Below are positions 22,646-41,287 of a DNA stretch of 49,744 bases, in pieces. Position 1 is the stretch's first letter; each line of letters begins with the position of its first letter. The stretch covers positions 1-49,744 of the forward strand of contig CAYGHM010000004.1 of assembly GCA_964349825.1 (NCBI GenBank), read 5' to 3'. A model generated the notes under the pieces. It was not told the origin of the DNA, did no database searches, and was given only the letters and a program-made list of their open reading frames with translations. Made by a program: the position numbers and the translations under genes. This DNA is from an uncultured Gammaproteobacteria bacterium (GTDB taxonomy: Bacteria > Patescibacteriota > Patescibacteriia > Magasanikbacterales > UBA922).

Positions 22646-22674
22646 TTGCACCCTTTCTCTCAATCGGGTACAGT
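22646..22674 (+). promoter_or_regulatory. Candidate promoter TTGCAC-17-TACAGT for rsmA; implies a leaderless mRNA
   Basis: The -10 box ends 9 nt before ATG 22684, and there is no SD. Confidence 0.4.
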
Positions 22675-22683
22675 ATTATCACT

Positions 22684-23514: not shown

Positions 23515-23558
23515 TCTATTCATGCTGTGCAAACAGCATGGAAATGTACCCCAAGTGG

Positions 23559-23583
23559 CAGCGCGATTTATCGCGCTGTTTTT
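23559..23583 (+). terminator. Intrinsic terminator after rsmA
   Basis: 8-bp stem CAGCGCGA/TCGCGCTG with loop TTTA, followed by TTTTT. It is preceded by a second perfect hairpin CATGCTGT-GCAA-ACAGCATG (23521-40). Confidence 0.8.
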
Positions 23584-23670: not shown

Positions 23671-24366
23671 ATGTCACTGAACGAATTTGAGTCCCAGTTG
23701 ACCAAAGAGCAAAAGACAGGTTTTGTCTTGTTGCTTCTTTTTGCTATCATGACGGTGGGGCTTGGTTTTTTGCAGCTTCGTAATACGATTTATTCTCCAT
23801 TTGTCATTCGTCTTTCGAACAAAGAAAAAACGATTGAAATTCAGGATGATGCAACTCGTCTGCAATCTATCGATACAGATAGAGATGGGTTAAATGATTA
23901 TGACGAAATTACCTTTTACCAAACAAGTGCCTATTTGCCGGACACTGATTCTGATGGAAAAACGGATAAGCAAGAGATAGATGCCAAAACCAATCCACTT
24001 TGTGCGGAAGGAAAAATCTGTGATACGTCAGATCTCCCCGAATCGGATAGCGCCGAAAAAGAATTGGTGGATAAAGCAAGTAAGACACAAACACCGCTTG
24101 ATGTAACTGGTGGTTCTCTCAATAATACCGGGCAAGCGAGTGTCCAGCCAACACAACAAGCGTCTGGAGTGCCGGATGTCAATGCGCTCATAAATGATCC
24201 CAAACAGTTACGAACGTATTTACTCGGGACAGGAAAAATTACCGAACAGCAGCTCTCACAAATTGATGATGCAACCCTCCTTGAAAGTTTTAAGGCAGCA
24301 TATCAGCAGACTGCGGCCCAGTCACCAGGAGCGGTGACCACTTCTACTAAAACGTCCTCACCATAA
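23671..24366 (+). CDS. Membrane-anchored protein with thrombospondin-type-3-like Ca-binding repeats
   Basis: TM helix GFVLLLLFAIMTVGLGFL. DTDRDGLNDYDE and DTDSDGKTDKQE (DxDxDGxxDxxE) at nt 23872-24003. The start was chosen at ATG 23671, downstream of the -10 box. Confidence 0.6.
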   Translation: MSLNEFESQLTKEQKTGFVLLLLFAIMTVGLGFLQLRNTIYSPFVIRLSNKEKTIEIQDDATRLQSIDTDRDGLNDYDEITFYQTSAYLPDTDSDGKTDKQEIDAKTNPLCAEGKICDTSDLPESDSAEKELVDKASKTQTPLDVTGGSLNNTGQASVQPTQQASGVPDVNALINDPKQLRTYLLGTGKITEQQLSQIDDATLLESFKAAYQQTAAQSPGAVTTSTKTSSP

Positions 24367-24370
24367 CGGT

Positions 24371-27300
24371 ATGAATAGGAATTCCTCCCCCAAAAAACAA
24401 CGGCTAGGTATCAGTATATTATTGAGCGTATTTGTCACAGTCCAATTTTTGGGCTTTTTTGCTTTTCCAAGCCAAGTAAAAGCGCAAGGAGCCCCTGTCT
24501 TCGATGCGGCAAACTTTGGACAATTAGTAAAAAACGGAATTGTTGAAGTGTTGGAAGCTTCTGCTATGGGCGCACTTTTGAACGGAGCATCATATTTCAT
24601 GCGAAAAATCGCGTATGATACTGCGAGCTATCTTGCAAATGGAGGAAAAGGGCAATCTGCGCTTGTCTTTAAAAAAGGATGGGGAAGTTATCTTGAAGAT
24701 GTGAGTGGAAATGCGGCGGCATCTGCCATTGATCAATTAGGGAAACCATTTGGATTAGACCTCTGTAAGATGCCAAGCGTTGGTTTTCAAGTTGATTTAC
24801 AGATTGGCTTAAGAAGTTTATATGGAACACCGTCGTTAGATGGTGTGGGTGCTGGCCCTGAACCAAGCTGTAGTTTTCAGAAATTAAAAGAGGGGTGGAA
24901 AGATTGGGATAATCTTGATGTCCAAGGAGAAAAATTGTCCAATGCTTTCGGAGCGTCTCTTACTGTGAGTCAATCTGATTTTGGTATTGCTTTAAATGCG
25001 GTTGAACAGGTGGACCGTTTGGTTGCCAAACAACGTTTTGAGAAGTTGGCTGAACGTGGTGAAGGCGGCGGATTTAAAGCTGTCACTGATTACATTTCTG
25101 GGGATATTAAAACTCCGGCAGAAGTGGTGAAGGAAGAATCAAAAACATTGAGTGGACCAAATCAAACTCAGTTGACCATGAGTCAAATTGCTGGTGTTTA
25201 TGGATCGGGTGCTTTACAGGTATTTTCCATGGCCGGATCAGTATTTCTTAATACCCTTATTTCACAGGGCTTAAATAATCTGTTCACCAAAGGATTGGTC
25301 CCAAATAATAAAGGAACAAGCGCGGTAGTGGATTTTTACGCACAAAGCATACTTAATAATAAAAAAGCAGTTGAAAAAGCATTTAATTATTTATTTACAG
25401 CCGTACCTAAAAAACAGATTACTAAATACGAAGCGCTTGTTGAGCTTGAGGCATGCTCTGATCAACCAGGATTGAATAACTGTGTTATTGATAATAAGCT
25501 ACGTGATCTTATTGCATTGGCAAAACTTGAAAAACCGTTGACGATTCGCGAAGCGATGAATAAAAATTATCTCAATAAAGGATGGCCACTTATTTCCCCA
25601 GCTCGAGACGAAAATGATGATTTTGATTGCCGGAATAAGGGATATTGTTATTCTAATTTGCAAAAATTAAGAAAATTACGCGTATTTCCAATCGGTTTTG
25701 AATTAGCGGCATTACGTTCTGATCCAGATCAGCCATGGACACTTGAACAAGTTGTTAATGGGTTTGAAGATTGTACGATTGATTCAGTTACCGGAAAAGC
25801 AATTCCTGATTCAAAAAAACCATTTTGCCATTTGATTGATCCAAATTGGATTGTTCGTTTGCCGGAAGCTCATTGTGAAAGTAAGGTCTATGGGCCAGTA
25901 CTATTGTCAGCACAGACGGCAGATCGTCGTGAGGAATGTGTGGATATTACCACTTGTATTACCGAAGGACCGAATGGCGAATGTGTTAACGATCAAACAT
26001 ATGCATACTGCACACGGGAAAAGAATATTTGGCGTATTGGCGCAAACAGTTGTTTGCCTCAGTATAATACTTGTAAAAGTTATCTAGATAATAAGGGCAC
26101 AGTTCGTTCTTATCTTTCTCGTACACTTGATTATGGTACTTGTAGCGCCCAGTCTGTTGGTTGTGCCGCATATAGTTTTGCGCAAAATGTAAATGGGTGG
26201 GTGAGTACTCCTAACGTTTCAATTGATAAAAAAATTGCCGGTGATGTGCAAGTTGCCTTCTTTAATAAGAATGTCGCAAATTATTCCTGTGTTCCAGATG
26301 ACGAGGGAACATCAGAATTTTATCAAGTAAAGAAGGAAGGGGATGTATATGTAAAAAATACAGATCCAGAAATTAAGCCGGTTTATCTTAAAAAAGCGCC
26401 AGATTATCTTGGGTGTTATGATATTGATGGTGGAACACCGGGTATTCAGTATCCAAAAAATACTATTGATCTTGATAAACTTCCTCAAAAAGAAGAGTGT
26501 AAACAATTTGCAAGCGCATGTTTGCCAGAAGAAACACAATGTCAATCATTTACCCCAAAGAAGGGCGGCGAACCGATTCCAGGTATTATTGGCGCAAATG
26601 GTTGTGCAGCATCGTGTGTAGGCTATGATACCTTCAAACAAGAGCCAACCCAATTTGAAGTAGCTAAATATCCTTTATATTTCATTCCTGCTAAGGGAGA
26701 GAGTTGTTCATCAGACCACGCTGGATGTACTGAGTTTACCAATTTAGAAGGCGGTGCGAACGGAGAAGAATTGGCCTATTTTAGCGCGATTAAATATTGT
26801 GAAAAACCAACAGGCAGTAATTTAAAGACATATTATTCTTGGGAAGGTGACCAAGAAAAAGGGTATGTCTTAAAAGTGCATAAATTGCGTCCGTTTACCG
26901 CTCAGGATGCGGATTATATCAATCAGCTTCAGGATGTAAATATTTCTGCACAGTTTGTTGCGGGGACACCAGCCTATGCTGATGATAGAAAGCAAGAGCT
27001 TGTTGGGAATGCGGCAGTGTGTAATGAAAAATTATATAATGCCTATATTAATGGAACCAAAGATCAAGAGAAATTTAATGTCGATTGTCGGGCATTCTAT
27101 GATGAAGCAGGACAAGTTTCCTATCGTTTACTTGCAAAAACAATTACCATATCTGAAGATTGCGCGGTACTCCGAAAAACTACATCTGAATTCCATAAAG
27201 ATGACTATATTAAAGATGTAAAAATTTGTACCGATAGAGGTGGTAAATTTGAAAATAATTTCTGTATGCGCTGTACAGGCGGCGGATTCTTTAAAGACAA

Positions 27301-30300
27301 TAGTTGTGTCTATAGCGCTATTGTCGGTGAAGAGGGTTCTACTGGCTGTCCTGCAGAAGCAAATGGTTGTCGTGAATATACGGGAAACTCTGGAAATAAT
27401 ACGATCCCTGTTCTTACCAATGACTTTGAAGGGACTACCGCTCTTGCTGGCTGGTCTGTGGATGGCGGTGGAGATGTAAAAGTTGCTGCTGAGTCCATTC
27501 AAGTAGGATTACACTCCCTACAAGTTACCGGTGAGACGACAAAACGTGAATTGCCATCTGCTGTGACTGAAGACGGTTGGTATGAGCTTAGTTTTTGGGT
27601 GCGTGGTACGCCTCAAGCACTTACCATTTCTTTTGGACCGAGTACGGAAGCGTCACCGGCAGTAGAATTTACCAAAAATCCACAAACCAATGTATCAACT
27701 CCAATTTCTATTAATAATAGCTGGAGATTGTACAGACTCGGCCCTGTTTATTTGCCAAAAGGTGCTGCAAAAAATAATATTTCATTTAGTCGAAGCGGAA
27801 ATACCGCATACTTCTTGGATTCACTTGAGCTTCGTCAGGTAACTGGGGACGACAATTTATTCCGTATCAAAGATTCTTGGAAACAAACTGTTCCGTTTGG
27901 CGCTGATGTGGTGAATGCTGATGTACCGCTTATTTGCGATCCTGACCCAACGGATGATCTTCCAGGATTTGCTTTGGGTTGTTCTGCATATACAGATGGA
28001 AATGGACAAGATAAATTTGCTACGGGATTTGAACAATTATGTCGTCCAGAAGCAGTAGGCTGCCAACCATTGATTGATACATATAATACCGTCGAAGGAA
28101 CTGATGAAGAAAAAGCACATGTATATAATGCTATTTGTGCTGTTCCTGCCGATGTATCAACGGTGACGCCATGTAAGATTGTGGTTGCAGGAAAAGAATA
28201 TGGTAATGGCTGTTCAATTTTGATTGGGGAAAAGAGCTGTGCGGTAAAAGATTTTGCTGCCACAACCGGAGAGTTGCAGGCATTAAAACCATACATTACC
28301 GCTTCAACGATCGTTATTCCTGCAGATACGCTCGCGTCTGATCCGGTATTTCTAACGAATAGAGCGAACTTCCGTCGCAGTCCACAAGTATTGGGATGTC
28401 AAAAAGTAGCGCGTGAAAATCAAAAGATTCCAGGTGTTCAGACATCCGCGTATACATTTGAAAAAGAACAATTTATAAAGAATAATCCTGCGAATTATGG
28501 CACGATTCTTTGTGATGCAACCCAGGTAGGTTGTAGTGAATTTTCGGACGACAATACAAAATCGTATTTCAAAGATCCGCTTTTGAGTGGAAATGCATTA
28601 TGTGAATATCACGAGATAAAAGTGGGATTGGATACATTCTCAGGTTGGTTTAAATCTGGTGTTGGAGAATGTGCGAATAATCCTGCACAATTGTGTCGTG
28701 AAGATACTTCGGATACAGATTGCGGAAAAGGCATTGCATGTAATAAAGTAGGCGAATTGCAGTGTTACAACAATTATATTGATCAAGCGGGACAATATGG
28801 TATTTGGTCAAATAAATCTAATAACTATACCGGTCTTGTAGGTATTTGTGGTGAAGATCAGAATCAATGTAATGAAATCGTTGATCCACAAGATGTTTCC
28901 CTTCAGAATCCAAAAGGAAAACCGTATTATGTCATTTTTGATGACGAGGTAAAAGACCGTCAGGCAAAATGTTCTGGTGTTAGTCTTGATGAGGGTTGTA
29001 TCCTTTTTGATAAAACCGAAGATCCGAACAAAAAATATTCTAGTGAATTAACGTATAAGGAAAGTCGAAAGAACGGAAATAAAGTGGTAGCGCCAAAAAA
29101 TGCAACCGGACAATTTTTGGGTGATACAAATATTGTTTTAAAAGTAGATCGCGATCGACAGTGTAGTGAATGGCTATCATGTAGTAATTCGATGGTAATA
29201 AAAGATAAAGATACAGGAGAAAATCAGAGAATTTGTGCTGATTATCGTGCTTGTGTGAAAGATGATAAAGGTAAATGTTTATCTTGGAAACAAAATACCC
29301 ATAATGATGCGTATCTTTCCGAGGAAGATTATATTTCGCGAGATACAGATTGGTATGCAAATGAATATGTTGGATACTCTCTCTTGAATAAGTATCAGGT
29401 GCATTATTATTCCTATATTCGAGTATCGAGTACTGCATACGCCGTGTATAAGATGGATGAATCATCATTTGATGATTATCCAGATCTATCTTGTTTGAAG
29501 ACGGATGATACACCAAAAGATGATTGGATTGAATGCGGCTTTAGTCAAGATAAAAACGGAAATGGACAGGGGCGTTGCTATAAGGGTGCGTGTATTTATC
29601 CGTTGACGGGTAAATTCCCAGATAAAATGTCAGCAAGTAAAGATAATTTTGAACAAGCATTGCAAGTATTGGGACCTGAACGGTATCAGTGTAAAGCATT
29701 TCCTGAACCAACAAGTCCGTATCCTCGTACTATTGTAAAGAAATTTGAAACGAGACCTTCTGATTTTGGCCCAAGAGATATTTTCCTAACAAAAGCAACA
29801 GGTTTTGGTGAGGCAAACGTATGTCAAAATGGAGATTGTTCATGTAAATACACTAAGGTAGAGTATAAAGGAATATCAGAAGTAGATTATTGGGATGTCG
29901 GAAAAAATATACAAGACATGGGTGTTTGTCAGGGTGGAGACAAAGACGGAAGATTCTGTAAAACAAATACTGATTGCGAAGGTGGAAACGGTATATTTAG
30001 TGGTAGCACCTGTGCAAAAATAAGCAAAATAGAAACACGAGAAGGATTACATGGTCTTTGTTTGGAAGAAGACAGAAGCCGTTTGATTAACGGGGCGGAT
30101 CAACAGTCATGTCTTACTTGGTTGCCGGTTGATTCAGGATTTAATGGAGTGGATAATTATAATTTTGTTCCAGAATCTGGGTACTATCCTTCTTTGGATT
30201 CCTCAAAAGACGGTGGTGAACTTTATTGTGTTGCAGGAGCAACAGGAAGAGACAGAACTCAGGATCCAGCACATCAAGTACCTCATAATGTACCGAGTTC

Positions 30301-32917
30301 AATGGCCAACCACCTGTTTGGTGGTACGACTTTCCTTGACGGTTATGATGCAAGCATCATCAAAGATATTGACAATTCTCTTTCCTACGGTCCGATTAAT
30401 ACACTCAAAATAGGTGCTTCCTGCTATTATAACGAGTTTATTATTGGAGACATGTATGACAAGAATGGGGCTGATTATGCGGTATGTGGCCCTGTTCAAT
30501 ACGCAGTTTTTCACAAAAAATGTCTTATTGACGGGGAATGTTATTGGCCGGGTATAACAATAGAACCAAAAAAATATACGTTGCAAGAGGTTGTTTATTC
30601 TATGATGCAAAACGTTGGACAGGATAAGAATCCAGGAACTAATTTGGCCACCGTTTGGTTTGTCGACGATACGGATAATTGGGTAAATTATTCCAAAGAT
30701 TCATTTGCCTCCTTTGAAAATACCACAGGAGCGACTTGTGCGGACGATGTGCGTGCTGAGGGTAAAGGAACTGTAGACAATTGGAAGTGTAACTATTATC
30801 CACCATGGCGCGCGCAAAAGGCCATAGAATATTTTTATGGCTTAAAAGACATGCCGACAGATTCAGTAGTGAGTCCATACATTCCAGAATTTTCTAAGAA
30901 TGTATATGAGGGAACAGTGCAGAGAATTTATTTTTCACCGATAATTCTTCCTTTTGCATTTGAGGCAGAGGCCTGTAACTTATGGGGAAATGATTACTGT
31001 AATCCAACAGGAGACTATGTTATGGATTATGCCCACTACAATGAAGTATATTTTGATTTTACTGAAATAAATAATAAACAAGAAGGATCCATCCATAAAA
31101 TAGAGATGAAAACAGAACGCTCCTTGTTGAAAAATCCTGGTGATAAATATGTTATATATCAAAAAAAAGGCATCATGACTGATGCAAGTGGAACAAAAAA
31201 GACCAGATATGTTTTAGTTCTTTCTTTGCAGAAAGATTTTGATGAGAACAAGGCAACTAAGTGGATTGATGAGTATCTTAAAAATAGTGAGCTAGACGGT
31301 GACATGAAAAATCCTCAGAATGATAATTTTGTGGTTATTTATACTGATTTTGACAAAACAACAGGAAAAATAATTCCGCAAAAAAATGGTAAGCCATTTT
31401 ATAGTAAAATGATTGGATCACTGCCAGGAAATTATGCCGGTACCGATGGGATATCACAGGGAGATATCTATAAAAAGTACATGAAGTCAAATCCTGTAGC
31501 GGCTTCTACTATTCTTTATTGGCCTTTTTGTACCGCTTTTGAACAGGTGTTTAATTCCTCAGTGGAGATAGGGCAGGGATTATCAACAAATAAAGCGTGG
31601 ACAAACCGTGTCTGGAGCGCAGCCCCAGAGGCTACCAACTTGGATATAGCTGAAAAAGTGCCAACAAGATCAACTACATTTGCACCTTATGCGACTATTA
31701 GTTTAAGAACTGGAGATACCAAACAGGAGAAACTAGCAAATTATCCTTTCCAAGATTTTATAAAGGACGGACGACCATTGGCTTGCAACGATAAACTTGT
31801 GAAAGGATTTGGGGGAATATTGTCGAGTCTTGCTGATGATTGCATATCTAATTCAGGAGCTGGATATGGAAAATTACCGGGGTATGCTGATTATACGGAT
31901 TATTTATTTGCCTACGAGTTCAATAAATATGTTATCCAGGATAATAATGCAGCATTTAAAGATCAATTAGCTGGTTCTGGAAAAGACCTGAGTGATAAAA
32001 TGAAAGGAAATCAAGCTCCAAAAATATATTCTCTCAATCCCGCAACTTGTTTCACTGCCGGAATTGGAAAAACAACCTGTTCTGCCGGAGAAGTAAATAA
32101 CTTTACGGTAAAGCAGAGAAACGCCACGAATAAAGATTATGATTTGAACGGTATCCCAGATGAAGATCCATCAAAGAAGGGGAATGAGGAAGCGCATATT
32201 TCGACCGGTGGATTTTTCTTCGCAGATGCAAAATTCTTTGCCTTTGCTGATGACAATCAAATGCCGATTAAACGGGTTATGGTGAATTGGGGAGATGATA
32301 TGCCTGTAACAAATATGGATACGTATGGCAGATACAAGAACCATAAGCCATACTGTGCGGCAAGTGAAGGAGACGTTGTTGGTTTGTGTGGAAAAGCTGG
32401 TGTAGGTGGTAAAGAAACCACCGAAACGCCAAGCCTTCTCACCTGTGCCACGGATAAAGAATGTGGTATCGTAGATCCATCATTTGTCTGTCTCATGAAA
32501 GATCACAAAGATCCGACGCATAAACTTCCTGGAAAATTAAAAGACCAAGATGCTTTCGACGTCGCGCGTTTCGGTAATATGCCCCGCGCTTGTGAAGCAA
32601 CATATTTTGACTTTGCTCACGTGTACACCTGTTCAAAGGGAAATAAATATAGATTCAAAGTATCTGATCCTGCAAACAAGTTGAGTCCCGCAACAAAAGG
32701 ACGACTTGCTGCACATGGTGTTAAAGATAGTGACGAAGTGTGTGTCTATAAGCCAGGAGTGCAGATATTGGATAACTGGGATTGGTGTAACGGTATAGAT
32801 AATGTGTTGAATAATAATTTTGTGGGGAGACATGGAGATGCATGTAATTCTGCGAGTGATCCTACTCACTTCACGCCTTACAAAGGTCAAATTGTGGTAG
32901 TCCCTGAGAAACAATAG
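24371..32917 (+). CDS. Giant secreted/anchored Cys-rich protein (2,848 aa) with a TrbJ/VirB5-like N-terminal motif and an internal CBM/jelly-roll-like domain
   Basis: Signal/anchor ISILLSVFVTVQFLGFFAFPSQVKAQG, then APVFDAANFGQ. About 100 Cys by my count, with only 2 in the first roughly 360 aa. A Cys-free segment at nt 27419-27841 (NDFEGTTALAGWSVDGG..WYELSFWVRG..YFLDSLELRQV) looks like a carbohydrate-binding jelly roll. Confidence 0.8.
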   Translation: MNRNSSPKKQRLGISILLSVFVTVQFLGFFAFPSQVKAQGAPVFDAANFGQLVKNGIVEVLEASAMGALLNGASYFMRKIAYDTASYLANGGKGQSALVFKKGWGSYLEDVSGNAAASAIDQLGKPFGLDLCKMPSVGFQVDLQIGLRSLYGTPSLDGVGAGPEPSCSFQKLKEGWKDWDNLDVQGEKLSNAFGASLTVSQSDFGIALNAVEQVDRLVAKQRFEKLAERGEGGGFKAVTDYISGDIKTPAEVVKEESKTLSGPNQTQLTMSQIAGVYGSGALQVFSMAGSVFLNTLISQGLNNLFTKGLVPNNKGTSAVVDFYAQSILNNKKAVEKAFNYLFTAVPKKQITKYEALVELEACSDQPGLNNCVIDNKLRDLIALAKLEKPLTIREAMNKNYLNKGWPLISPARDENDDFDCRNKGYCYSNLQKLRKLRVFPIGFELAALRSDPDQPWTLEQVVNGFEDCTIDSVTGKAIPDSKKPFCHLIDPNWIVRLPEAHCESKVYGPVLLSAQTADRREECVDITTCITEGPNGECVNDQTYAYCTREKNIWRIGANSCLPQYNTCKSYLDNKGTVRSYLSRTLDYGTCSAQSVGCAAYSFAQNVNGWVSTPNVSIDKKIAGDVQVAFFNKNVANYSCVPDDEGTSEFYQVKKEGDVYVKNTDPEIKPVYLKKAPDYLGCYDIDGGTPGIQYPKNTIDLDKLPQKEECKQFASACLPEETQCQSFTPKKGGEPIPGIIGANGCAASCVGYDTFKQEPTQFEVAKYPLYFIPAKGESCSSDHAGCTEFTNLEGGANGEELAYFSAIKYCEKPTGSNLKTYYSWEGDQEKGYVLKVHKLRPFTAQDADYINQLQDVNISAQFVAGTPAYADDRKQELVGNAAVCNEKLYNAYINGTKDQEKFNVDCRAFYDEAGQVSYRLLAKTITISEDCAVLRKTTSEFHKDDYIKDVKICTDRGGKFENNFCMRCTGGGFFKDNSCVYSAIVGEEGSTGCPAEANGCREYTGNSGNNTIPVLTNDFEGTTALAGWSVDGGGDVKVAAESIQVGLHSLQVTGETTKRELPSAVTEDGWYELSFWVRGTPQALTISFGPSTEASPAVEFTKNPQTNVSTPISINNSWRLYRLGPVYLPKGAAKNNISFSRSGNTAYFLDSLELRQVTGDDNLFRIKDSWKQTVPFGADVVNADVPLICDPDPTDDLPGFALGCSAYTDGNGQDKFATGFEQLCRPEAVGCQPLIDTYNTVEGTDEEKAHVYNAICAVPADVSTVTPCKIVVAGKEYGNGCSILIGEKSCAVKDFAATTGELQALKPYITASTIVIPADTLASDPVFLTNRANFRRSPQVLGCQKVARENQKIPGVQTSAYTFEKEQFIKNNPANYGTILCDATQVGCSEFSDDNTKSYFKDPLLSGNALCEYHEIKVGLDTFSGWFKSGVGECANNPAQLCREDTSDTDCGKGIACNKVGELQCYNNYIDQAGQYGIWSNKSNNYTGLVGICGEDQNQCNEIVDPQDVSLQNPKGKPYYVIFDDEVKDRQAKCSGVSLDEGCILFDKTEDPNKKYSSELTYKESRKNGNKVVAPKNATGQFLGDTNIVLKVDRDRQCSEWLSCSNSMVIKDKDTGENQRICADYRACVKDDKGKCLSWKQNTHNDAYLSEEDYISRDTDWYANEYVGYSLLNKYQVHYYSYIRVSSTAYAVYKMDESSFDDYPDLSCLKTDDTPKDDWIECGFSQDKNGNGQGRCYKGACIYPLTGKFPDKMSASKDNFEQALQVLGPERYQCKAFPEPTSPYPRTIVKKFETRPSDFGPRDIFLTKATGFGEANVCQNGDCSCKYTKVEYKGISEVDYWDVGKNIQDMGVCQGGDKDGRFCKTNTDCEGGNGIFSGSTCAKISKIETREGLHGLCLEEDRSRLINGADQQSCLTWLPVDSGFNGVDNYNFVPESGYYPSLDSSKDGGELYCVAGATGRDRTQDPAHQVPHNVPSSMANHLFGGTTFLDGYDASIIKDIDNSLSYGPINTLKIGASCYYNEFIIGDMYDKNGADYAVCGPVQYAVFHKKCLIDGECYWPGITIEPKKYTLQEVVYSMMQNVGQDKNPGTNLATVWFVDDTDNWVNYSKDSFASFENTTGATCADDVRAEGKGTVDNWKCNYYPPWRAQKAIEYFYGLKDMPTDSVVSPYIPEFSKNVYEGTVQRIYFSPIILPFAFEAEACNLWGNDYCNPTGDYVMDYAHYNEVYFDFTEINNKQEGSIHKIEMKTERSLLKNPGDKYVIYQKKGIMTDASGTKKTRYVLVLSLQKDFDENKATKWIDEYLKNSELDGDMKNPQNDNFVVIYTDFDKTTGKIIPQKNGKPFYSKMIGSLPGNYAGTDGISQGDIYKKYMKSNPVAASTILYWPFCTAFEQVFNSSVEIGQGLSTNKAWTNRVWSAAPEATNLDIAEKVPTRSTTFAPYATISLRTGDTKQEKLANYPFQDFIKDGRPLACNDKLVKGFGGILSSLADDCISNSGAGYGKLPGYADYTDYLFAYEFNKYVIQDNNAAFKDQLAGSGKDLSDKMKGNQAPKIYSLNPATCFTAGIGKTTCSAGEVNNFTVKQRNATNKDYDLNGIPDEDPSKKGNEEAHISTGGFFFADAKFFAFADDNQMPIKRVMVNWGDDMPVTNMDTYGRYKNHKPYCAASEGDVVGLCGKAGVGGKETTETPSLLTCATDKECGIVDPSFVCLMKDHKDPTHKLPGKLKDQDAFDVARFGNMPRACEATYFDFAHVYTCSKGNKYRFKVSDPANKLSPATKGRLAAHGVKDSDEVCVYKPGVQILDNWDWCNGIDNVLNNNFVGRHGDACNSASDPTHFTPYKGQIVVVPEKQ

Positions 32918-32924: not shown

Positions 32925-32953
32925 AAAACCGTCGGTATGTCCGGCGGTTTTTT
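32925..32953 (+). terminator. Intrinsic terminator after the giant gene
   Basis: Stem ACCGTCGG/CCGGCGGT (one G-U pair) with loop TATGT, followed by TTTTTT. Confidence 0.7.
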
Positions 32954-32958
32954 GTACC

Positions 32959-33188: not shown

Positions 33189-33653
33189 CTACTCGATGAT
33201 GACACAGTGGATCGTTTTCTGGTCCTGGGGTTCGAAGTAGCTGAATTCCTTCTTGGTCTTGTCGCAGGTTAGCTTGGACGTGAGCATGGGTTCGAAGATT
33301 TTCGCATCGACCCAGCAGGCGTTCTGCTTTACCTCGATCTTCAGCTTGATGTCCCAGTCCAAGCTTCCAGGGCACTTCCACTGATACGCTTTCATCCAGT
33401 TCCAGTCCGCGCACGGGTCCGGCTTGGCGACGCAGGTGCCGGTTTGGCAGATTTGGTCGGCCGAGCACAGGCTGCACGGATCGGGCGGGATGTCTTCGGC
33501 GGGGGCAGCATCAGCTTCAGAGACTTGGCCGCTGTCGGGATGGTTACCGGCATCGGCGTAGGTCGTCGGGGAATTGGCAGTGGCACCAAGTTGTTCCTCA
33601 CAGCCGCAAATAGCCAGCAGGAACAGGATCAAGATCCAGGGGAAAGTACGCAT
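33189..33653 (-). CDS. Secreted/lipoprotein-like Cys-rich protein on a GC-rich island (154 aa from MRTFPW)
   Basis: The only convincing minus-strand gene. AGGAG lies 6 nt upstream of the second ATG (33653). Signal peptide MRTFPWILILFLLAICGC. CSLCSADQICQTGTCV Cys-repeat. GC is about 60-67% in sampled lines. Confidence 0.55.
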   Translation of the reverse strand: MRTFPWILILFLLAICGCEEQLGATANSPTTYADAGNHPDSGQVSEADAAPAEDIPPDPCSLCSADQICQTGTCVAKPDPCADWNWMKAYQWKCPGSLDWDIKLKIEVKQNACWVDAKIFEPMLTSKLTCDKTKKEFSYFEPQDQKTIHCVIIE

Positions 33654-34149: not shown

Positions 34150-37100
34150 ATGCAAACGCGCATTGCTCGTAATTTGAGCTTGCTGAAACAATATATTAAA
34201 GCGGCGTTGCCACAAACAAAAAAACACTGGATAGTTAGTGTGTCTTTTGCTATCGTACTTTTTGGCTTGTGTTTGTTTATTACAAATACCGTACACGCAG
34301 AAGAAGCAGCCGCGGCAGCCGCTCCAGCATCTGAACCTGGAACCATGGCAAATATTGGTACGTATATTTTGACAATGATTACCAAGGCCATTTTGATGAT
34401 TGCGCAGATTTGTATCAAGATGACTATTTTTGCACTGGAATTTTTCGTGAAGCTGGCGAAGTATAATGGATATGTGGATGCACCAATCGTGATTCTCGGA
34501 TGGACCATGATTCGTGATATAGCGAATATGTTTTTTGTGGTTGTTCTCTTGGTCATCGCATTTGGAACTATCTTGGGACTTGAACAGTATGAATGGAAAA
34601 AGACCATGGTCAATTTTATTCTTGCAGCAATTTTTATTAACTTTAGTAAATTGATTGCTGGATTGATTATCGACGTGGCCCATGTGTTCACTATGACATT
34701 TACCAATGCTATTGCCGCAACGGCGGGTGGAAATATTATCAACATGTTCCATTTGAGCGATATTGTGTCGATTGTGTCAGGTGGTTTCCAAACAGGCGAT
34801 CCGACTCCGGATATCGTACTTGAAGTTTTTGGTGGTGCAGTGATGGCGCTTGTGTTTGCCGTTTTAGCCATGGTTACGATGGGGGCATATCTTATTGTCA
34901 TGGTTGCTCGAATCGTGGTGTTGTGGGCACTTATTATTTTGTCACCTCTTGCATATATTTTGAATGTTATTCCGCAAACAAAGAGTTATGCGGACACATG
35001 GTGGAGTGAGTTTGGAAAACACGTCATGGTGGCTCCAATTATGGTGTTCTTTTTATGGCTCGGGTTTGCTACTTTGGGAAGTGGAAGTTTTGTACAAAAT
35101 GATTTAGGTATAGCCTTTGGATCAGATGCGACGGCAACAGATAAAGCGCTCGGTCTTCCTGCGGCATCTATTGAGCGACCAAAAGTGAGTGTTTCTAATG
35201 TCAGTACATGGGAAAATATGGCGAATTTTATTTTGGCCATTGCTTTCTTGTGGGTTGGTATTGAACAAGTACAAAAAACGGGTGTCCGTGGTGGAGAAAT
35301 GCTTTCTCATGCAAAAAGTTTTGCTACTAAAGCGGCACTTATTGGTAGTGGATATGCTCTTGGTCGTTGGTTGACCGGCGAAGCAGGGGACCTTGGTGGA
35401 AAGGGATTAAAACAAGTCGGATATCGTATTCCTCTTGTTGGTGGACGTGCATGGCAGACCCGTGGATACAATGCGCTTGAAAAGTATGGTCGTGCGCAGG
35501 AATGGATAGATAATAAAGCAAAAGGATTGGATTCCGGTTATCGTGATTTGCAAAAAGGTAAATTGACAGCAAAATATGAGGGAGGATCTACTGCGCAATA
35601 CAGCAGCTTTAATCCAGCAAATATTCGTGCTGTTGCAGGACGTTTTGCTGCATCTGTTATTGAAACAGGCGGACGTAAAGATAAAATTCGTGATGATTAT
35701 AAAGAAGCGTATGAACGCCGCATGACAGTCGTGGAAGAAAGTTATTCTACGAGTGGATTGCCCGGCGGATCTTTGAAGCAGGAAGTCACTGGTCAATTGA
35801 AATTTGTCGAAGCTTTGGGTAAGGCAAAATCAGAGGCAAAAGTCAAAGATATTATGGGCCTGATTTTGGCAAACAACGATTCTTTTAAGGCATATGCCAA
35901 GCCAGCCATGGTTGCTGAAGAAAAAGCGCGTGTATCTGATCCAAAAGAAAAAATTGAAAGAGGAAAACGGTTGGGCTCTATGCGTAGTTTCGGCGACGGT
36001 CTGAAAACAGATGAAAAAGCTGCTAAGCTTGAAATAGAGTCACAAAAACGAGAGGAAATTATTAAAGAAAAACAGAATATATTGATGGGAAAGACTGATG
36101 GAAAATTTACTAATACAAATCCTTTAGCTGGTGTTCTCGCTGACACCAAAGCTGCGGCGCAATTACAACAGGCAATCGCCAAAGGATTTGAAGAGATCCA
36201 TCTTGATGAGGCGCTTGGAAGTTTATTCCAGGATATCTCCAATAATTCATTAGCGCAGGTGTATCTTGCGATGCAACAGCAAAAAGTAGAAGCGGTTTCA
36301 AAGAAAGAACGATATGAAAAAGAAAGGGAGAAAACCGTCAAAGGAAAAGAGCCAGGAATTTCTCGTGCTGAAGAAATTGCAAAACATAAAGCTATTACTG
36401 AAAATTTACAGAAAACGATTTCTCGTGCTTCAGATATTCAGCTTGCAACCGCCCGTGCCGTACAATATAAACAGAATGGCCAATTTTTGAAAGCAGACCA
36501 AACCTTGCAGAGTGTATATCAAAGACATGAAGAAGAGGACAGTAAAGAAATTTCTGGTTTGAACCGTCAGCAGAGAAAAGACGTGGCAAGTCAATTGCTC
36601 ACTTCATTGGGATCAACAACTGACCCCGAAGAAAAAGCCCAGATTACCCGTGATTTGACACGTTTGGTTACTGTAAGCGCAAATAAAGGTGCTGATGACT
36701 TTAAATCTTTGATGGAGAGTGCTTTGCCAGAAATTTATAATGGCGACACGGTTGATTTAAAAGAAGAAGATGCGAGTAAACATTTTTTGGAAATGGTTAC
36801 AGGAAAGAAAATTTCTTCAGAAGCGGAATACAACGACGCGTTTAAAGCATTTAATGTCTCATTTGAAGCAGGTAAGCCAAGAGATGCTGCAACTGGATTG
36901 ATCACTCCACAAGGAGAGAAAGCTGCAAAATCAGAACAGCAGGCAGTCCTTGCATCTTTATCCAATGCATTTTGGGCTCAGGGTGAAAGCGGTGGTCTTA
37001 ATTTTTCTGCTGCCGTAGGATCGAATATTGAGTCTGATCCGGATAAGCCTATATTAAAGAGAAAAGTTTTTGAAATTCGTCCCTCTTATAGTATTTCTCG

Positions 37101-37569
37101 TGATGAAAACGAGGATCGAAAAGGAAATATCGATGCATTGTCCAATGAATATCTGGTAACCCGTGATGTTATGTCGATCATCGACATGGTAAACTCACAA
37201 ATGAAAGCAGATCCATCAGGAAAAGTTGATAAGAAGGGTAAAAGAGTATATCAAGATAGAAAAGTGACCGAAGTTACATCAGATCAAATGTCCCGTCTTA
37301 AATCCTGGCTTACAAGCTTTAGTGATACACGAGAAGTGGCTCAGATCAACCGTGCTTTTTCAGTGTCAACACAGGATAAAAATTTCGAAGATGGTGCAAA
37401 AAAACAAATGGCAAAATTATTTAAGGAATTACAGGATGATTTGAAAGGCAAAGGTTTAAGTTCTGTTTATGCAAAAATTATGCAGACGCAGTTTTCTGAT
37501 TTGTATAATGACGCAATTGTTCAAGCAGAAATGGGTAGTGATTGGAAAAAATTAGAAGATTTAAAATAA
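34150..37569 (+). CDS. Polytopic VirB6/TrbL-like membrane protein with a roughly 700-aa charged, coiled-coil-like C-terminal extension
   Basis: Start moved to ATG 34150 (MQTRIARNL). Signal-like helix plus an AEEAAAAAAPASE spacer, then at least 6 hydrophobic helices over about 400 aa in a TrbL/VirB6-type arrangement. The rest is a Lys/Glu/Ala-rich hydrophilic tail. Confidence 0.55.
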   Translation: MQTRIARNLSLLKQYIKAALPQTKKHWIVSVSFAIVLFGLCLFITNTVHAEEAAAAAAPASEPGTMANIGTYILTMITKAILMIAQICIKMTIFALEFFVKLAKYNGYVDAPIVILGWTMIRDIANMFFVVVLLVIAFGTILGLEQYEWKKTMVNFILAAIFINFSKLIAGLIIDVAHVFTMTFTNAIAATAGGNIINMFHLSDIVSIVSGGFQTGDPTPDIVLEVFGGAVMALVFAVLAMVTMGAYLIVMVARIVVLWALIILSPLAYILNVIPQTKSYADTWWSEFGKHVMVAPIMVFFLWLGFATLGSGSFVQNDLGIAFGSDATATDKALGLPAASIERPKVSVSNVSTWENMANFILAIAFLWVGIEQVQKTGVRGGEMLSHAKSFATKAALIGSGYALGRWLTGEAGDLGGKGLKQVGYRIPLVGGRAWQTRGYNALEKYGRAQEWIDNKAKGLDSGYRDLQKGKLTAKYEGGSTAQYSSFNPANIRAVAGRFAASVIETGGRKDKIRDDYKEAYERRMTVVEESYSTSGLPGGSLKQEVTGQLKFVEALGKAKSEAKVKDIMGLILANNDSFKAYAKPAMVAEEKARVSDPKEKIERGKRLGSMRSFGDGLKTDEKAAKLEIESQKREEIIKEKQNILMGKTDGKFTNTNPLAGVLADTKAAAQLQQAIAKGFEEIHLDEALGSLFQDISNNSLAQVYLAMQQQKVEAVSKKERYEKEREKTVKGKEPGISRAEEIAKHKAITENLQKTISRASDIQLATARAVQYKQNGQFLKADQTLQSVYQRHEEEDSKEISGLNRQQRKDVASQLLTSLGSTTDPEEKAQITRDLTRLVTVSANKGADDFKSLMESALPEIYNGDTVDLKEEDASKHFLEMVTGKKISSEAEYNDAFKAFNVSFEAGKPRDAATGLITPQGEKAAKSEQQAVLASLSNAFWAQGESGGLNFSAAVGSNIESDPDKPILKRKVFEIRPSYSISRDENEDRKGNIDALSNEYLVTRDVMSIIDMVNSQMKADPSGKVDKKGKRVYQDRKVTEVTSDQMSRLKSWLTSFSDTREVAQINRAFSVSTQDKNFEDGAKKQMAKLFKELQDDLKGKGLSSVYAKIMQTQFSDLYNDAIVQAEMGSDWKKLEDLK

Positions 37570-39993: not shown

Positions 39994-40431
39994 ATGCAAC
40001 AGTTTGTCGTTCCACAATTTATTGATGTTGAAGATAAAATTTTTGGTCCGGTTACTACGCGGCAGTTTTTGATTTTGCTTGTCGGAAGTCTGACTATTTT
40101 TTTGGGATTTCGTTTTGGTGATTTCATGACCTTTGTTCTGGTGCTTATTTTTGTCGGAGGCGGATCACTTATTCTTGCCTTCGTGAAGATTAATGGACAA
40201 AATTTTCACATGTTTTTATTGAATATTTTTCAAACACTCAAAAAACCAAGTTTGCGCATTTGGAATAAGTCCTATACTGATCAGGATTTGGATTATTTGC
40301 GAAAGCGTGATTCAGAAATCATTATTACTGAAAAGCAAGAACGGAAAGCCGTGCGACATGAACATATCCGTGATTTATCCCTTATTGTAAATACAGGTGG
40401 GTACTATAAGCCAGAGGATGATCAATGGTAA
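39994..40431 (+). CDS. PrgI-family (VirB3-like) small membrane protein
   Basis: N-terminal VVPQFIDVEDKIFGPVTTRQFLILLVGSL followed by two TM helices. This matches the PrgI/VirB3-like pattern of Gram-positive-type T4SS. Confidence 0.65.
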   Translation: MQQFVVPQFIDVEDKIFGPVTTRQFLILLVGSLTIFLGFRFGDFMTFVLVLIFVGGGSLILAFVKINGQNFHMFLLNIFQTLKKPSLRIWNKSYTDQDLDYLRKRDSEIIITEKQERKAVRHEHIRDLSLIVNTGGYYKPEDDQW

Positions 40432-40574: not shown

Positions 40575-41267
40575 ATGGATAAAAAGATGCAACAAAAGAA
40601 AAATCAGAAAGCAAAACGCCCGTCCACCCAGGCGCATACTCCTATTGCCGAGATTAAGGATGGTGTTGTTGTATTGAAAGATGGCAGCATGAGAAAAGTT
40701 CTTTTAACATCGAGTATTAATTTTGCGTTAAAATCAGAAGATGAGCAGAACGCATTGATTTCTTCGTATGTAGGTTTTTTAAATTCTATTGATTTTCCAC
40801 TGCAGATTGTTGCACAGTCGAGACGGCTCCAGATTCAGCCGTATCTTGATAAATTGATTGCTATTGAAAAAGAACAGCCAAATGAATTATTGCGTGTGCA
40901 AATCGCAGATTACAGATCCTTTATTCAGGAGTTGGTTGATATTGGACAGATCATGACGAAGCGATTTTATGTTGTGGTGCCGTATGATCCGATGTCCCAT
41001 AAACAAAAAGGTTTTTTTGCTCGCCTCAAAGAAATTATTGCTCCGGCAATAACGATCCGATTAAAAGAAGATCGATTCCAACAGAAAAAAGCTGATTTGG
41101 ATATGCGTGTTCGACAAGTAGGCGGCGGACTCGGAAGCATGGGGCTTCAAGTTGTTGAGCTCAATACTCAGGCGCTTATTGAATTATTTTATACCACCTA
41201 TAATCCTGATATTTCTTTTGCAGAAAGTCTTGGCAAGCTAGAAGATATTCAAATTGAAAGCCTGTAG
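40575..41267 (+). CDS. Hypothetical protein resembling a stand-alone VirB4 N-terminal domain (230 aa)
   Basis: IAEIKDGVVVLKDGSMRKVLLTSSINFALKSEDEQNALISSYVGFLNSIDFPLQIV follows the same pattern as the N-domain of VirB4-type ATPases. It has no Walker motifs. Confidence 0.4.
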   Translation: MDKKMQQKKNQKAKRPSTQAHTPIAEIKDGVVVLKDGSMRKVLLTSSINFALKSEDEQNALISSYVGFLNSIDFPLQIVAQSRRLQIQPYLDKLIAIEKEQPNELLRVQIADYRSFIQELVDIGQIMTKRFYVVVPYDPMSHKQKGFFARLKEIIAPAITIRLKEDRFQQKKADLDMRVRQVGGGLGSMGLQVVELNTQALIELFYTTYNPDISFAESLGKLEDIQIESL

Positions 41268-41287
41268 CTAGCATATCGTAATATATT

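What the first reader, a model, noticed from the sequence alone, without database searches (positions are those of the whole stretch)
24371..32917. 2,848-aa protein with about 100 cysteines, a TrbJ/VirB5-like N-terminus and an embedded jelly-roll domain
Seen: after a signal/anchor helix the mature N-terminus reads GAPVFDAANFGQLVKN. From memory, TrbJ/VirB5-family proteins start right after their signal peptide with a (I/V)PV(I/F)DxxNxxQ motif. The first roughly 360 aa contain only 2 Cys and look helical. The remaining roughly 2,500 aa carry about 98 Cys at fairly regular spacing (CxxxxC, CxC, GxC patterns). One Cys-free block (nt 27419-27841) resembles a CBM/LamG-like jelly roll.
Inference: this may be a VirB5-like minor-pilin or tip module fused to a huge disulfide-stabilised adhesin. 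That would make it the host- or substrate-contacting end of the downstream machine.
Basis: partly seen in the sequence, partly recalled or inferred. Interest (0 to 1): 0.7.

Follow-up and report, generated by a model that had tools for sequence, protein, structure and literature searches.

The report
Giant cysteine-rich surface protein, Magasanikbacteria
This is a real 2,848-residue secreted protein with about 100 conserved cysteines, from an uncharacterised family in ultra-small Candidatus Magasanikbacteria; it looks like a sugar-binding surface adhesin often encoded beside a type IV secretion system, and its proposed VirB5/TrbJ relationship rests on one short motif.

Summary
ORF 24371-32917 encodes 2,848 aa with 100 Cys, only 2 of them in the first 360 aa. 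It has a Sec signal peptide and a Cys-free block that models as a CBM22/CBM4_9-like jelly roll.

The protein belongs to a large unnamed family of about 2,500-3,300 aa proteins. All named members are from Candidatus Magasanikbacteria or other Patescibacteria. In distant homologues, 92 of the 100 Cys are at least 90% conserved. Residues ~1955-2400 are hypervariable.

The VirB5/TrbJ reading is not supported. R388 TrwJ does begin AQ|GIPVFD, against AQ|GAPVFD here. But this motif lies in a variable leader and is strictly kept in only 10 of 152 family members. Pfam, NCBIfam, PDB profile searches and hhalign (probability 0.25%) find no relationship. The AlphaFold model of the N-domain is helical but low-confidence.

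The constant genomic partner is a 231-aa membrane protein with TSP3-like calcium-binding repeats, found directly upstream in 53 of 54 loci. Terminator-like hairpins flank the two genes.

The VirB6-like/VirB3/VirB4 cluster lies within 10 kb downstream in 11 of 30 loci, spread over several deep branches. In one checked exception it lies 22 kb away.

Best reading: a disulfide-stabilised, fast-evolving host-binding surface protein that probably works alongside the type IV system but is not shown to be part of it.

The parts
23557..23580 (+). Terminator-like hairpin after the upstream KsgA gene; marks the 5' boundary of the two-gene unit
   Evidence: Stem of 10 pairs (6 G-C) followed by a T-run; sequence read.
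23671..24366 (+). Partner gene ('up241'; 231 aa from the ATG). Short cytoplasmic N-terminus, one transmembrane helix (aa ~24-48 of the 241-aa ORF), then two DxDxDG TSP3-like calcium-binding repeats and a Ser/Thr/Gln-rich tail. Its stop is 4 nt before the giant's ATG.
   Evidence: Translation; hydropathy; weak Pfam TSP3_bac hit; called as 231 aa on the source contig. A homologue lies directly upstream of the giant in 53 of 54 loci.
24371..32917 (+). Giant gene: 2,848 aa, 100 Cys
   Evidence: More than 337 homologues of about 2,700-3,300 aa.
24371..24484 (+). Sec-type signal peptide (aa 1-38), with predicted cleavage after V-K-A
   Evidence: Single strong hydrophobic segment at aa 11-34. A38 is invariant in the family.
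24485..24532 (+). Variable mature N-terminal leader carrying QGAPVFDAANFGQLVK, the VirB5-like short motif
   Evidence: Alignment. Compare R388 TrwJ AQ|GIPVFD. Strict motif in 10 of 152 family members.
24533..25450 (+). Conserved, family-specific N-domain (aa ~55-360). Predicted all-helical, with 2 Cys.
   Evidence: AlphaFold gives helices at pLDDT <50. An HMM of this domain finds 1,286 clusters; the 150 best are all giants or truncated copies, with the domain always at aa ~35-370. No VirB5 similarity.
25451..25885 (+). Most conserved compact domain (aa 361-505), containing the motifs NPGLNNCVID, YCYSNLQKLRK and CHLIDPNW
   Evidence: pLDDT about 90; highest identity block, 0.57; no PDB fold match.
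25886..27394 (+). Cys-rich beta region I (aa 506-1008)
   Evidence: AlphaFold pLDDT 70-90 from aa ~600; invariant cysteines; hairpin motif at aa 591, 717, 779 and 993.
27395..27910 (+). Cys-free CBM4_9/CBM22-like jelly-roll domain (aa ~1009-1180)
   Evidence: Pfam CBM_4_9 E 6e-4, below cut-off. PDB profile hits to CBM4-2 xylanase modules, E 0.3-1.1. Foldseek match to CBM22 4xuo_A: E 1e-6, TM 0.71. Homologue P0079 carries a precomputed PF02018 hit.
27935..30235 (+). Cys-rich region II (aa 1189-1955), conserved
   Evidence: All 120 homologues align through about aa 1955; invariant cysteines.
30236..31570 (+). Hypervariable region (aa ~1956-2400). Alignable only with the closest relatives (P0001-P0004 align over the whole length); holds the 8 non-conserved Cys.
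   Evidence: Coverage falls to 6-13 of 120 homologues. Column identity 0.10-0.15 and 33-53% gaps.
31571..32914 (+). Conserved C-terminal region (aa 2401-2848), including FFAFADDN-MPI-RVMV-WGDD and 14 conserved Cys. No LPXTG motif and no hydrophobic tail.
32926..32955 (+). Hairpin plus T-run 9 nt after the giant's stop codon; a candidate intrinsic terminator
   Evidence: AAAACCGTCGG-TATGT-CCGGCGGTTTTTTG, read directly from the sequence. The scan did not list it.
34150..37569 (+). Context: VirB6-like polytopic membrane protein (about 6-7 hydrophobic segments plus a long hydrophilic C-terminal part). First gene of the T4SS cluster.
   Evidence: Hydropathy. The homologue in L074 has a weak TrbL_3 hit. 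Most frequent downstream neighbour of the giant, in 14 loci.
39994..40431 (+). Context: PrgI/VirB3-like protein
   Evidence: Pfam PF12666, E 1.2e-7.
40575..43165 (+). Context: split VirB4. TrsD/TraC-like N-domain gene at 40575-41267; CD1110-family ATPase at 41288-43165.
   Evidence: NCBIfam NF045971 E 2.9e-100 and NF041427 E 6e-7; Pfam.

Best explanation
The gene encodes a Sec-exported, disulfide-cross-linked giant surface protein of a Candidatus Magasanikbacteria (Patescibacteria/CPR) cell. It is made from a two-gene operon together with a small single-pass membrane protein that carries calcium-binding TSP3-like repeats.

Shown:
- The protein has an export signal.
- 92 cysteines are conserved across the family.
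- The architecture is non-repetitive, multi-domain and mostly beta.
- It contains a CBM22/CBM4_9-like lectin-type jelly roll.
- A ~450-residue internal segment has diverged beyond alignment, while both flanks stay conserved.
- The partner gene is strictly co-inherited.
- The VirB6-like/VirB3/VirB4 cluster is a frequent but non-obligate neighbour.
- The giant evolves much faster (about 40% identity) than the neighbouring VirB4 (80-92%).

Inferred:
- After signal-peptide cleavage, the conserved helical N-domain holds the protein at the cell surface, probably through the membrane partner.
- The rigid disulfide-stapled body projects outward.
- The lectin-like domain and the hypervariable segment bind cell-wall glycans or other surface structures of a host or partner cell.
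- In this way it supplies the cell-to-cell contact that the adjacent monoderm-type T4SS needs.

On this reading it acts as an adhesin working alongside the T4SS, comparable in role to PrgB of pCF10. It is not a VirB5 homologue, and it is not demonstrably a structural subunit of the channel.
For: Export: signal peptide with an invariant -1 Ala.

Disulfide scaffold: 92 of 100 Cys are at least 90% conserved; the 8 others all lie in the hypervariable segment.

Lectin domain: Foldseek match to CBM22 (E 1e-6, TM 0.71), a sub-threshold Pfam CBM_4_9 hit, and a PF02018 hit in homologue P0079.

Hypervariable cassette.

Partner and operon: a homologue of the partner lies directly upstream in 53 of 54 loci. 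The intergenic gap is 4 nt. Terminator-like hairpins sit on both sides.

T4SS linkage:
- T4SS genes lie within 10 kb downstream in 11 of 30 loci, spread over several deep branches.
- One locus scored as non-adjacent has VirB4 22 kb downstream.
- Other secreted CBM_4_9 proteins occupy the same slot upstream of the VirB6-like gene in L073 and L076.

Rate contrast: giant about 40% identity against VirB4 80-92%.

Literature:
- Large Cys-rich extracellular proteins of CPR bacteria have been proposed to act in attachment (PMC4736985).
- The Patescibacteria T4SS is MPF_FATA-like, and no adhesin had been detected for it (PMC12102498).
- KsgA is reported as common near virB4 (PMC12102498, section 14). 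That fits the KsgA-partner-giant-T4SS order seen here.
Against: - No binding, localisation or expression data exist.
- The CBM hit is below Pfam's cut-off for this protein, and the ligand-binding residues were not examined.
- 19 of 30 loci have no T4SS gene within 10 kb. In those loci the downstream neighbours are housekeeping genes such as ScpA, ScpB and an S11 carboxypeptidase.
- The protein has no LPXTG motif or other recognised wall or membrane anchor. Retention at the surface is therefore inferred only from the partner gene.
- The N-domain, the aa 361-505 domain and the C-terminal region have no known relatives, so an enzymatic or structural role cannot be excluded.
- Magasanikbacteria have not been cultured, and their hosts are unknown.
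Confidence: 0.55

Rival explanations
1. One reading: the N-terminal ~320 residues are a VirB5/TrbJ-type minor pilin or tip module. It would dock on the VirB6-like platform of the downstream T4SS and be fused to a giant adhesin, making the protein a structural extracellular part of the secretion machine.
For: - The mature N-terminus QGAPVFD closely matches R388 TrwJ QGIPVFD and the VirB5 consensus.
- Looser G-phi-P-V variants recur in scattered family members.
- The N-domain is predicted helical, as VirB5 is.
- The gene lies directly upstream of the VirB6-like gene on the same strand, here and in 11 of 30 loci.
- VirB2-like pilins are reported for Patescibacteria T4SSs (PMC12102498, PMC12857230).
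Against: - No VirB5/TrbJ hit for any of 26 N-domains in Pfam at E<=10, for this protein's N-domain in NCBIfam, or for the N-domain profile against PDB sequences.
- hhalign probability is 0.25%.
- The motif lies in a leader of variable length and sequence. It is strict in only 10 of 152 members.
- The motif does not track T4SS adjacency.
- Terminator-like hairpins isolate the operon from the T4SS genes.
- 19 of 30 loci lack an adjacent T4SS.
- The Pfam scans of the window's larger ORFs returned no VirB2-type pilin family.
- The Foldseek hits contain no VirB5, although the model is too weak to count as a real test.
Confidence: 0.12
2. A structural envelope protein (S-layer-like or wall-associated scaffold) that is part of the core cell surface of Magasanikbacteria. 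On this reading its proximity to the T4SS is inherited synteny in a small, gene-dense genome.
For: - In the loci examined the gene sits in a housekeeping neighbourhood: KsgA, Sua5, RF-1, glycolysis genes, ScpA/B.
- The partner gene is strictly conserved.
- The overall size is strongly conserved.
- The protein has no recognisable enzymatic domain.
Against: - The sequence is non-repetitive, and only the CBM-like domain has known relatives.
- A hypervariable internal segment and fast evolution fit ligand or host interaction better than a lattice protein.
- T4SS adjacency persists across deep branches.
Confidence: 0.15
3. A secreted effector or enzyme, for example a wall-degrading or toxic protein delivered to neighbouring cells. 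The hypervariable segment would be an exchangeable activity or specificity cassette.
For: - There is an export signal but no anchor motif.
- Variable cassette.
- An M23 peptidase recurs in the neighbourhood.
- Foldseek returns binary-toxin and Vip3 components.
Against: - Those Foldseek matches have rmsd above 18-35 A and are probably driven by the CBM-type sandwich.
- No toxin or hydrolase family is detected in any segment.
- The variable segment is internal, not C-terminal as in polymorphic toxins, and no immunity-gene pattern was seen.
- No DNA repeats or diversity-generating cassette were found.
Confidence: 0.08

Closest known systems
VirB5/TrbJ family (Pfam PF07996; e.g. R388 TrwJ, pKM101 TraC)
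   Same: Both have a Sec signal peptide followed by a mature N-terminus reading G-phi-P-V-F-D. Both have a helical N-terminal region. In this window the gene is next to VirB6-like, VirB3 and VirB4 genes.
   Different: - There is no sequence or profile similarity beyond about 7 residues.
- The motif is not conserved in the giant family.
- The protein is 2,848 aa, against about 220-250 aa.
- It is 3.5% Cys.
- It is transcriptionally separate from the T4SS genes and often not adjacent to them.
PrgB/aggregation-substance-type adhesins of monoderm (MPF_FATA) conjugation systems such as pCF10
   Same: Both are large secreted surface proteins encoded just upstream of, and on the same strand as, a Gram-positive-type T4SS. 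The proposed role of making cell-to-cell contact is the same.
   Different: There is no LPXTG sortase signal and no PrgB-type domain. This protein is chromosomal core rather than plasmid-borne, Cys-rich, and paired with a TM partner. No homology was detected. PMC12102498 reports no PrgB-like adhesin in Patescibacteria.
Large cysteine-rich extracellular proteins of CPR bacteria (Peribacteria; PMC4736985)
   Same: Both come from a CPR genome. Both have a signal peptide, exceed 1,000 aa, carry many cysteines and lack functional annotation. Both are proposed to act in attachment and are a source of strain-level variation.
   Different: This is a different lineage (Magasanikbacteria). It is one conserved gene rather than a 14-gene cluster. 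Its Cys content is 3.5%, against about 7%. Homology to those proteins was not tested. The partner gene, CBM-like domain and T4SS synteny were not described there.
CBM4/CBM9/CBM22 carbohydrate-binding modules (Pfam PF02018)
   Same: Aa ~1009-1180 model as the same beta-sandwich: TM 0.71 and 21% identity to CBM22-1 of Paenibacillus Xyn10C.
   Different: The Pfam score for this protein is below the curated cut-off. The module is embedded in a non-enzymatic giant protein rather than attached to a glycoside hydrolase. The ligand is unknown.

Membership tests
VirB5/TrbJ (PF07996, TIGR02791/TIGR02780) | Significant match to the family HMMs | tested here: not met
   No hit at E<=10 for aa 39-360 in Pfam or NCBIfam, nor for any of 26 family N-domains in Pfam.
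VirB5/TrbJ (PF07996, TIGR02791/TIGR02780) | Profile-profile similarity to an alignment of bona fide VirB5 proteins | tested here: not met
   hhalign of alignment A4 against 117 PF07996 proteins: probability 0.25%, E 0.24.
VirB5/TrbJ (PF07996, TIGR02791/TIGR02780) | Signal peptide followed by a mature N-terminal (G/Q)-phi-P-V-x-D motif | tested here: met
   AQ|GAPVFD here against AQ|GIPVFD in TrwJ. The strict motif occurs in only 10 of 152 giants, against 62 of 120 VirB5.
VirB5/TrbJ (PF07996, TIGR02791/TIGR02780) | Three-helix-bundle fold with a globular appendage (TraC/TrwJ structures) | tested here: inconclusive
   AlphaFold gives long helices at pLDDT <50. The best Foldseek hit against the PDB has E 2.9, and no VirB5 appears.
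VirB5/TrbJ (PF07996, TIGR02791/TIGR02780) | Small (about 220-250 aa) stand-alone protein encoded inside the T4SS operon | tested here: not met
   The protein is 2,848 aa. It forms its own two-gene unit bounded by hairpin-plus-T-run sites. T4SS genes are adjacent in 11 of 30 loci.
CBM_4_9 / CBM22 jelly roll (PF02018) | Pfam score above the gathering threshold | tested here: not met
   20.6 bits against a cut-off of 25.9, E 6e-4. Homologue P0079 does carry PF02018.
CBM_4_9 / CBM22 jelly roll (PF02018) | Beta-sandwich fold superposable on solved CBM structures | tested here: met
   Foldseek match to 4xuo_A: E 1e-6, probability 1.00, TM 0.71, rmsd 4.0 A over 167 columns. Model pLDDT about 70-89 in that region.
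CBM_4_9 / CBM22 jelly roll (PF02018) | Carbohydrate-binding cleft residues and sugar binding | not testable with these tools
PrgB-type monoderm T4SS adhesin | C-terminal LPXTG sortase signal and PrgB adhesin/polymer-adhesin domains | tested here: not met
   The C-terminus reads ...KGQIVVVPEKQ, with no LPXTG or hydrophobic tail. No Pfam domains were found.
PrgB-type monoderm T4SS adhesin | Encoded immediately upstream of the MPF_FATA-type T4SS genes on the same strand | tested here: met
   Window order is giant, then VirB6-like, PrgI, TrsD, VirB4. This order recurs in 11 of 30 loci.
Myxococcus-type cysteine-rich repeat proteins (TIGR02232) | Match to the repeat HMM; tandem Cys-rich repeats | tested here: not met
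   No NCBIfam hit at E<=10. No internal repeats by windowed hhalign.
Large Cys-rich extracellular CPR proteins (descriptive class, PMC4736985) | CPR origin, signal peptide, more than 1,000 aa, high Cys content, no annotation | tested here: met
   Magasanikbacteria homologues. Signal peptide. 2,848 aa and 3.5% Cys. No Pfam family.

The most novel reading that the evidence does not exclude
The giant and its TM partner are the missing extracellular host-contact module of the essential Patescibacteria-type T4SS. Its fast-evolving lectin and hypervariable domains would select the host cell. Its N-terminal region, including the VirB5-like mature N-terminus kept in some lineages, would dock on the VirB6-like platform. 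That would make it a monoderm functional counterpart of VirB5, arisen independently or diverged beyond recognition.
Probability: 0.2. Interest if true: 0.8.

Novelty: new variant of a known kind. Interest (0 to 1): 0.5.

Why it matters
Patescibacteria make up a large share of bacterial diversity, and the cultured members live attached to host cells. Their monoderm-type T4SS is essential in the one species tested, but its function is unknown. A 2025 survey (PMC12102498) found no adhesin associated with it.

This family has 1,102 clusters at 50% identity with E<=1e-10. It is a concrete, testable candidate for the host-recognition component in one major lineage. It combines a rigid disulfide scaffold, a lectin-like domain, a hypervariable segment and a dedicated membrane partner. 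Most of its roughly 2,800 residues have no known relatives, so it is also a target for structure determination.

If it proves to be only a generic surface protein, the result still corrects an attractive but unsupported VirB5 annotation.

Tried and rejected
VirB5/TrbJ homology. Tested with Pfam and NCBIfam scans of the N-domain at E<=10. Also tested with Pfam scans of 26 family N-domains, a profile search of PDB sequences, hhalign against 117 PF07996 proteins fetched with R388 TrwJ, and Foldseek on the AlphaFold model. All were negative, or uninformative in the case of the fold search. Rejected as a family assignment.

Tandem Cys-rich repeat architecture. Windowed hhalign of the family alignment against itself (301 pairs) found only one 13-residue match. 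Rejected.

Diversity-generating retroelement or cassette switching for the hypervariable region. No direct DNA repeats in or around the gene. Rejected for this window.

Transmembrane N-domain. Only the signal peptide passes a hydropathy threshold. Aa 52-75 and 273-302 are mildly hydrophobic. Not supported.

Link between the VirB5-like motif and T4SS adjacency. The motif occurs in 4 of 8 adjacent loci (3 strict, 1 loose) and in 4 of 15 non-adjacent loci (1 strict, 3 loose). No clear association.

Homology between the giant and the other CBM_4_9 proteins found upstream of VirB6-like genes in L073 and L076. blastp found none.

Lookups and searches that led nowhere. Accessions BN000925 and BR000038 were not in the collections. 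One literature search was too loose to be useful.

A full-length 61-sequence alignment was too large for structure prediction. 26-sequence alignments were used instead, which probably limited model confidence for the N-domain.
Full report
**1. The observation**

The window has the gene content of a reduced Patescibacteria (CPR) genome. It encodes EF-Ts, GAPDH, PGK, enolase and two iPGM paralogues. It also encodes a 1,014-aa M23 peptidase, KsgA, ComFC, HSP20 and VanW.

ORF 24371-32917 (+) is uninterrupted and encodes 2,848 aa. It has exactly 100 Cys. Only C132 and C167 fall in the first 360 residues. The three long Cys-free gaps are aa 167-362, 1000-1189 and 2210-2387.

The N-terminus is a typical monoderm Sec signal: basic residues, a 21-residue hydrophobic core, then V-K-A|QGAPVFDAANFGQLVKN. 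Hydropathy finds no other membrane-spanning segment.

**2. The family**

A search of 5.8 billion proteins returned 337 homologues. The listed ones are mostly 2,700-3,300 aa. All are unnamed or 'hypothetical', and all named ones come from Candidatus Magasanikbacteria or other Patescibacteria.

An HMM of the N-domain alone was run against 1.84 billion cluster representatives. It found 1,286 clusters at E<=1e-3 and 1,102 at E<=1e-10. The best 150 are all giants or contig-truncated copies, with the domain always at residues ~35-370.

All 120 listed homologues align over aa ~40-1955, and most again over ~2400-2848. Only 6-13 of them align across ~2000-2300.

In the family alignment, 92 of the 100 Cys are at least 90% conserved among sequences of about 40% identity. 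The eight that are not conserved all lie at aa 2018-2210, inside the hypervariable segment. There, column identity is 0.10-0.15, against 0.3-0.57 elsewhere.

Conserved, even-numbered cysteines in an exported protein indicate a disulfide-stapled extracellular fold.

'Regular spacing' is only partly right. C-x5-6-C is enriched (17 observed against 7.2 +/- 2.5 in shuffles), and a C-x5-6-(G)C-x-[EA]-[FY] hairpin motif recurs about nine times. However, 301 windowed profile-profile comparisons found no repeated domain beyond one 13-residue match. The protein is a unique multi-domain chain, not a repeat array.

**3. The jelly roll**

Whole-protein Pfam gives nothing. The isolated Cys-free block gives CBM_4_9 at E 6e-4, with 20.6 bits against a cut-off of 25.9. 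A family profile searched against PDB sequences gives only weak CBM4-2 xylanase-module hits, at E 0.3-1.1.

The AlphaFold model of aa 500-1699 was built from 26 sequences and has mean pLDDT 65.6. Aa ~600-1470 score 70-90 and are mostly beta.

Foldseek finds CBM22-1 of Paenibacillus Xyn10C with E 1e-6, TM 0.71, rmsd 4.0 A over 167 columns and 21% identity. It also finds other CBM-type sandwiches.

The remaining top hits are GH101, iota-toxin Ib, Vip3, and phage tail proteins in BFVD. Their rmsd values are about 18-50 A. They are best explained by the same sandwich. The embedded jelly-roll claim is supported at the fold level.

**4. The VirB5/TrbJ claim**

R388 TrwJ (VirB5), fetched from NC_028464, begins AQ|GIPVFDGTRALDFVQQ. 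62 of 120 VirB5 homologues carry phi-PV[FIVT]D near the N-terminus.

In the giant family, however, the 20-60 residues after the cleavage site vary in both length and sequence. The strict motif is present in 10 of 152 members and a loose version in 30. The conserved N-domain starts only at ...LGALVNGxSYFMRKLAYDTA.

That domain has no VirB5/TrbJ similarity in any of these tests:
- Pfam or NCBIfam at E<=10.
- Pfam scans of 26 family members.
- A profile search of PDB sequences.
- hhalign against an alignment of 117 PF07996 proteins. Probability was 0.25% and E 0.24, and the only visibly matched residues were the GxPVFD motif.

AlphaFold predicts long helices for aa 46-342, but at pLDDT below 50. 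Foldseek returns nothing below E 2.9 and no VirB5. The fold test is therefore inconclusive.

A defining feature (family HMM and profile similarity) was tested and not met, so the N-terminus should not be filed as VirB5/TrbJ. The motif remains an unexplained, patchily retained resemblance.

**5. Genomic context**

Sixty-seven related loci from species-representative genomes were fetched with 10-kb flanks and searched with the window's proteins.

A homologue of the small upstream gene (window 23671-24366) lies directly upstream of the giant in 53 of 54 loci. KsgA usually precedes it. The small protein is 231 aa. It has one TM helix, two DxDxDG TSP3-like calcium-binding repeats and a Ser/Thr/Gln-rich tail.

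In the window, the partner's stop codon is 4 nt from the giant's ATG. A strong hairpin plus T-run follows KsgA at 23557-23580. Another follows the giant's stop at 32926-32955. The partner and the giant therefore look like a separate two-gene operon.

Next comes a 1.1-kb spacer with an opposite-strand lipoprotein-like ORF. After it lies the T4SS cluster: a VirB6-like polytopic protein, two unknown genes, PrgI/VirB3, a TrsD-like VirB4 N-domain gene, a CD1110-family VirB4 ATPase, a 196-aa single-TM protein and ComFC. This matches the MPF_FATA-like arrangement published for Patescibacteria, including comF in class ABY1 (PMC12102498).

Genes of this cluster lie within 10 kb downstream of the giant in 11 of 30 loci with enough flank. 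The VirB6-like gene is the most frequent downstream neighbour. In the other loci the neighbours are housekeeping genes.

On a rough NJ tree of the giants, the adjacent arrangement appears in several deep branches, and one large clade lacks it.

VirB4 homologues from Magasanikbacteria are 80-92% identical to the window's, against about 40% for the giant. One locus scored as non-adjacent was checked and has VirB4 22 kb downstream on the same strand. So 11 of 30 may underestimate the linkage.

Seen from the T4SS side, the slot upstream of the VirB6-like gene is variable. It holds the giant here. In L073 and L076 it holds unrelated secreted CBM_4_9 proteins of 1,747 and 906 aa. In L075 an M23 peptidase lies further upstream, beyond two small opposite-strand genes. 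In L074 the upstream genes are small ORFs.

**6. Interpretation**

The evidence fits a fast-evolving surface protein best. It would be rigidified by about 46 conserved disulfides. It would be held at the cell by its conserved helical N-domain and its dedicated membrane partner. It would present a lectin-like domain and a hypervariable segment to the outside, making it a host- or substrate-binding adhesin.

The recurrent, phylogenetically widespread position next to the T4SS suggests the two systems work together in cell-to-cell contact. So does the recurrence of other CBM-bearing secreted proteins in the same slot. PrgB-type adhesins work with monoderm conjugation systems in a similar way.

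Nothing shows that the giant is a structural subunit of the channel. Three things argue against an obligate physical role: the separate transcription unit, the absence of an adjacent T4SS in many loci, and the negative VirB5 tests.

Three alternatives cannot be excluded, because most of the protein has no known relatives:
- an S-layer-like scaffold;
- a secreted enzyme or toxin;
- a true but unrecognisable VirB5 analogue.

**7. Novelty**

Large Cys-rich extracellular proteins proposed to act in attachment were described for another CPR lineage in 2016 (PMC4736985). The general kind is therefore known.

In the literature searched, I found no description of this particular family. That covers its size, its conserved cysteine framework, its N-domain, its partner gene, its hypervariable segment and its T4SS synteny. 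The 2025 survey of Patescibacteria T4SSs explicitly found no adhesin and, in the Patescibacteria clade, no VirB5 (PMC12102498).

I rate it a new variant of a known kind, of moderate interest. It would rise to high interest if a physical link to the T4SS were shown.

Noticed in passing
window 33189-33668 (-): A 159-aa ORF on the opposite strand with a lipoprotein-like signal (MRTFPWILILFLLAICGC...) and several Cys. It sits in a GC-richer 1.1-kb spacer between the giant and the VirB6-like gene. It is called as a gene on the source contig.
   Followed up: no
window 40575-41267 and 41288-43165: VirB4 is split into a TrsD/TraC-like N-domain gene and a CD1110-family ATPase gene. The same split is seen in all related loci examined and is reported for Patescibacteria in PMC12102498.
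   Followed up: partly
L073:1-829 and L076:110-2830: In two other Magasanikbacteria loci, the gene directly upstream of the VirB6-like gene is a different secreted protein with CBM_4_9 domains. One is 1,747 aa. The other is 906 aa, with about three CBM_4_9-like segments and no Cys. Neither is homologous to the giant. A carbohydrate-binding surface protein next to this T4SS may be a recurring theme.
   Followed up: partly
window 41288-43165 compared with 24371-32917: There is a large rate contrast. VirB4 homologues across Magasanikbacteria are 80-92% identical. The giant's homologues are mostly 36-45% identical.
   Followed up: partly
window 19530-22574: A 1,014-aa secreted M23 peptidase lies three genes upstream of the giant. 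M23 homologues recur within 10 kb of the giant in L007, L010, L033, L042 and L069, and near the T4SS in L075. It may be the wall-hydrolase (VirB1-like) function for the system.
   Followed up: no
window 15552-17159 and 17239-18819: Two tandem paralogues of cofactor-independent phosphoglycerate mutase. They account for the only DNA repeats found in the window, at 71-73% identity.
   Followed up: no
L060:2806-10007: This is the single locus without the partner gene. Here VirB6-like, orf461 and PrgI homologues lie directly upstream of the giant instead of downstream. It could be a rearrangement or an assembly join.
   Followed up: no
window 43204-43794: A 196-aa protein with one N-terminal TM helix lies immediately after VirB4. 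It is conserved in that position in L073-L076 (189-200 aa). Its size and topology fit a VirB8/PrgL-like component, but it has no Pfam hit.
   Followed up: no
window 694-6099: A second very large predicted surface protein (1,801 aa) with fn3 and Big_13 domains lies near the start of the window.
   Followed up: no
window 22456-23514: The KsgA ORF as listed (352 aa) overlaps the end of the M23 gene. The source contig calls it as 309 aa (window ~22585-23514), and homologues are 280-288 aa. The true start is therefore downstream of the listed one.
   Followed up: partly
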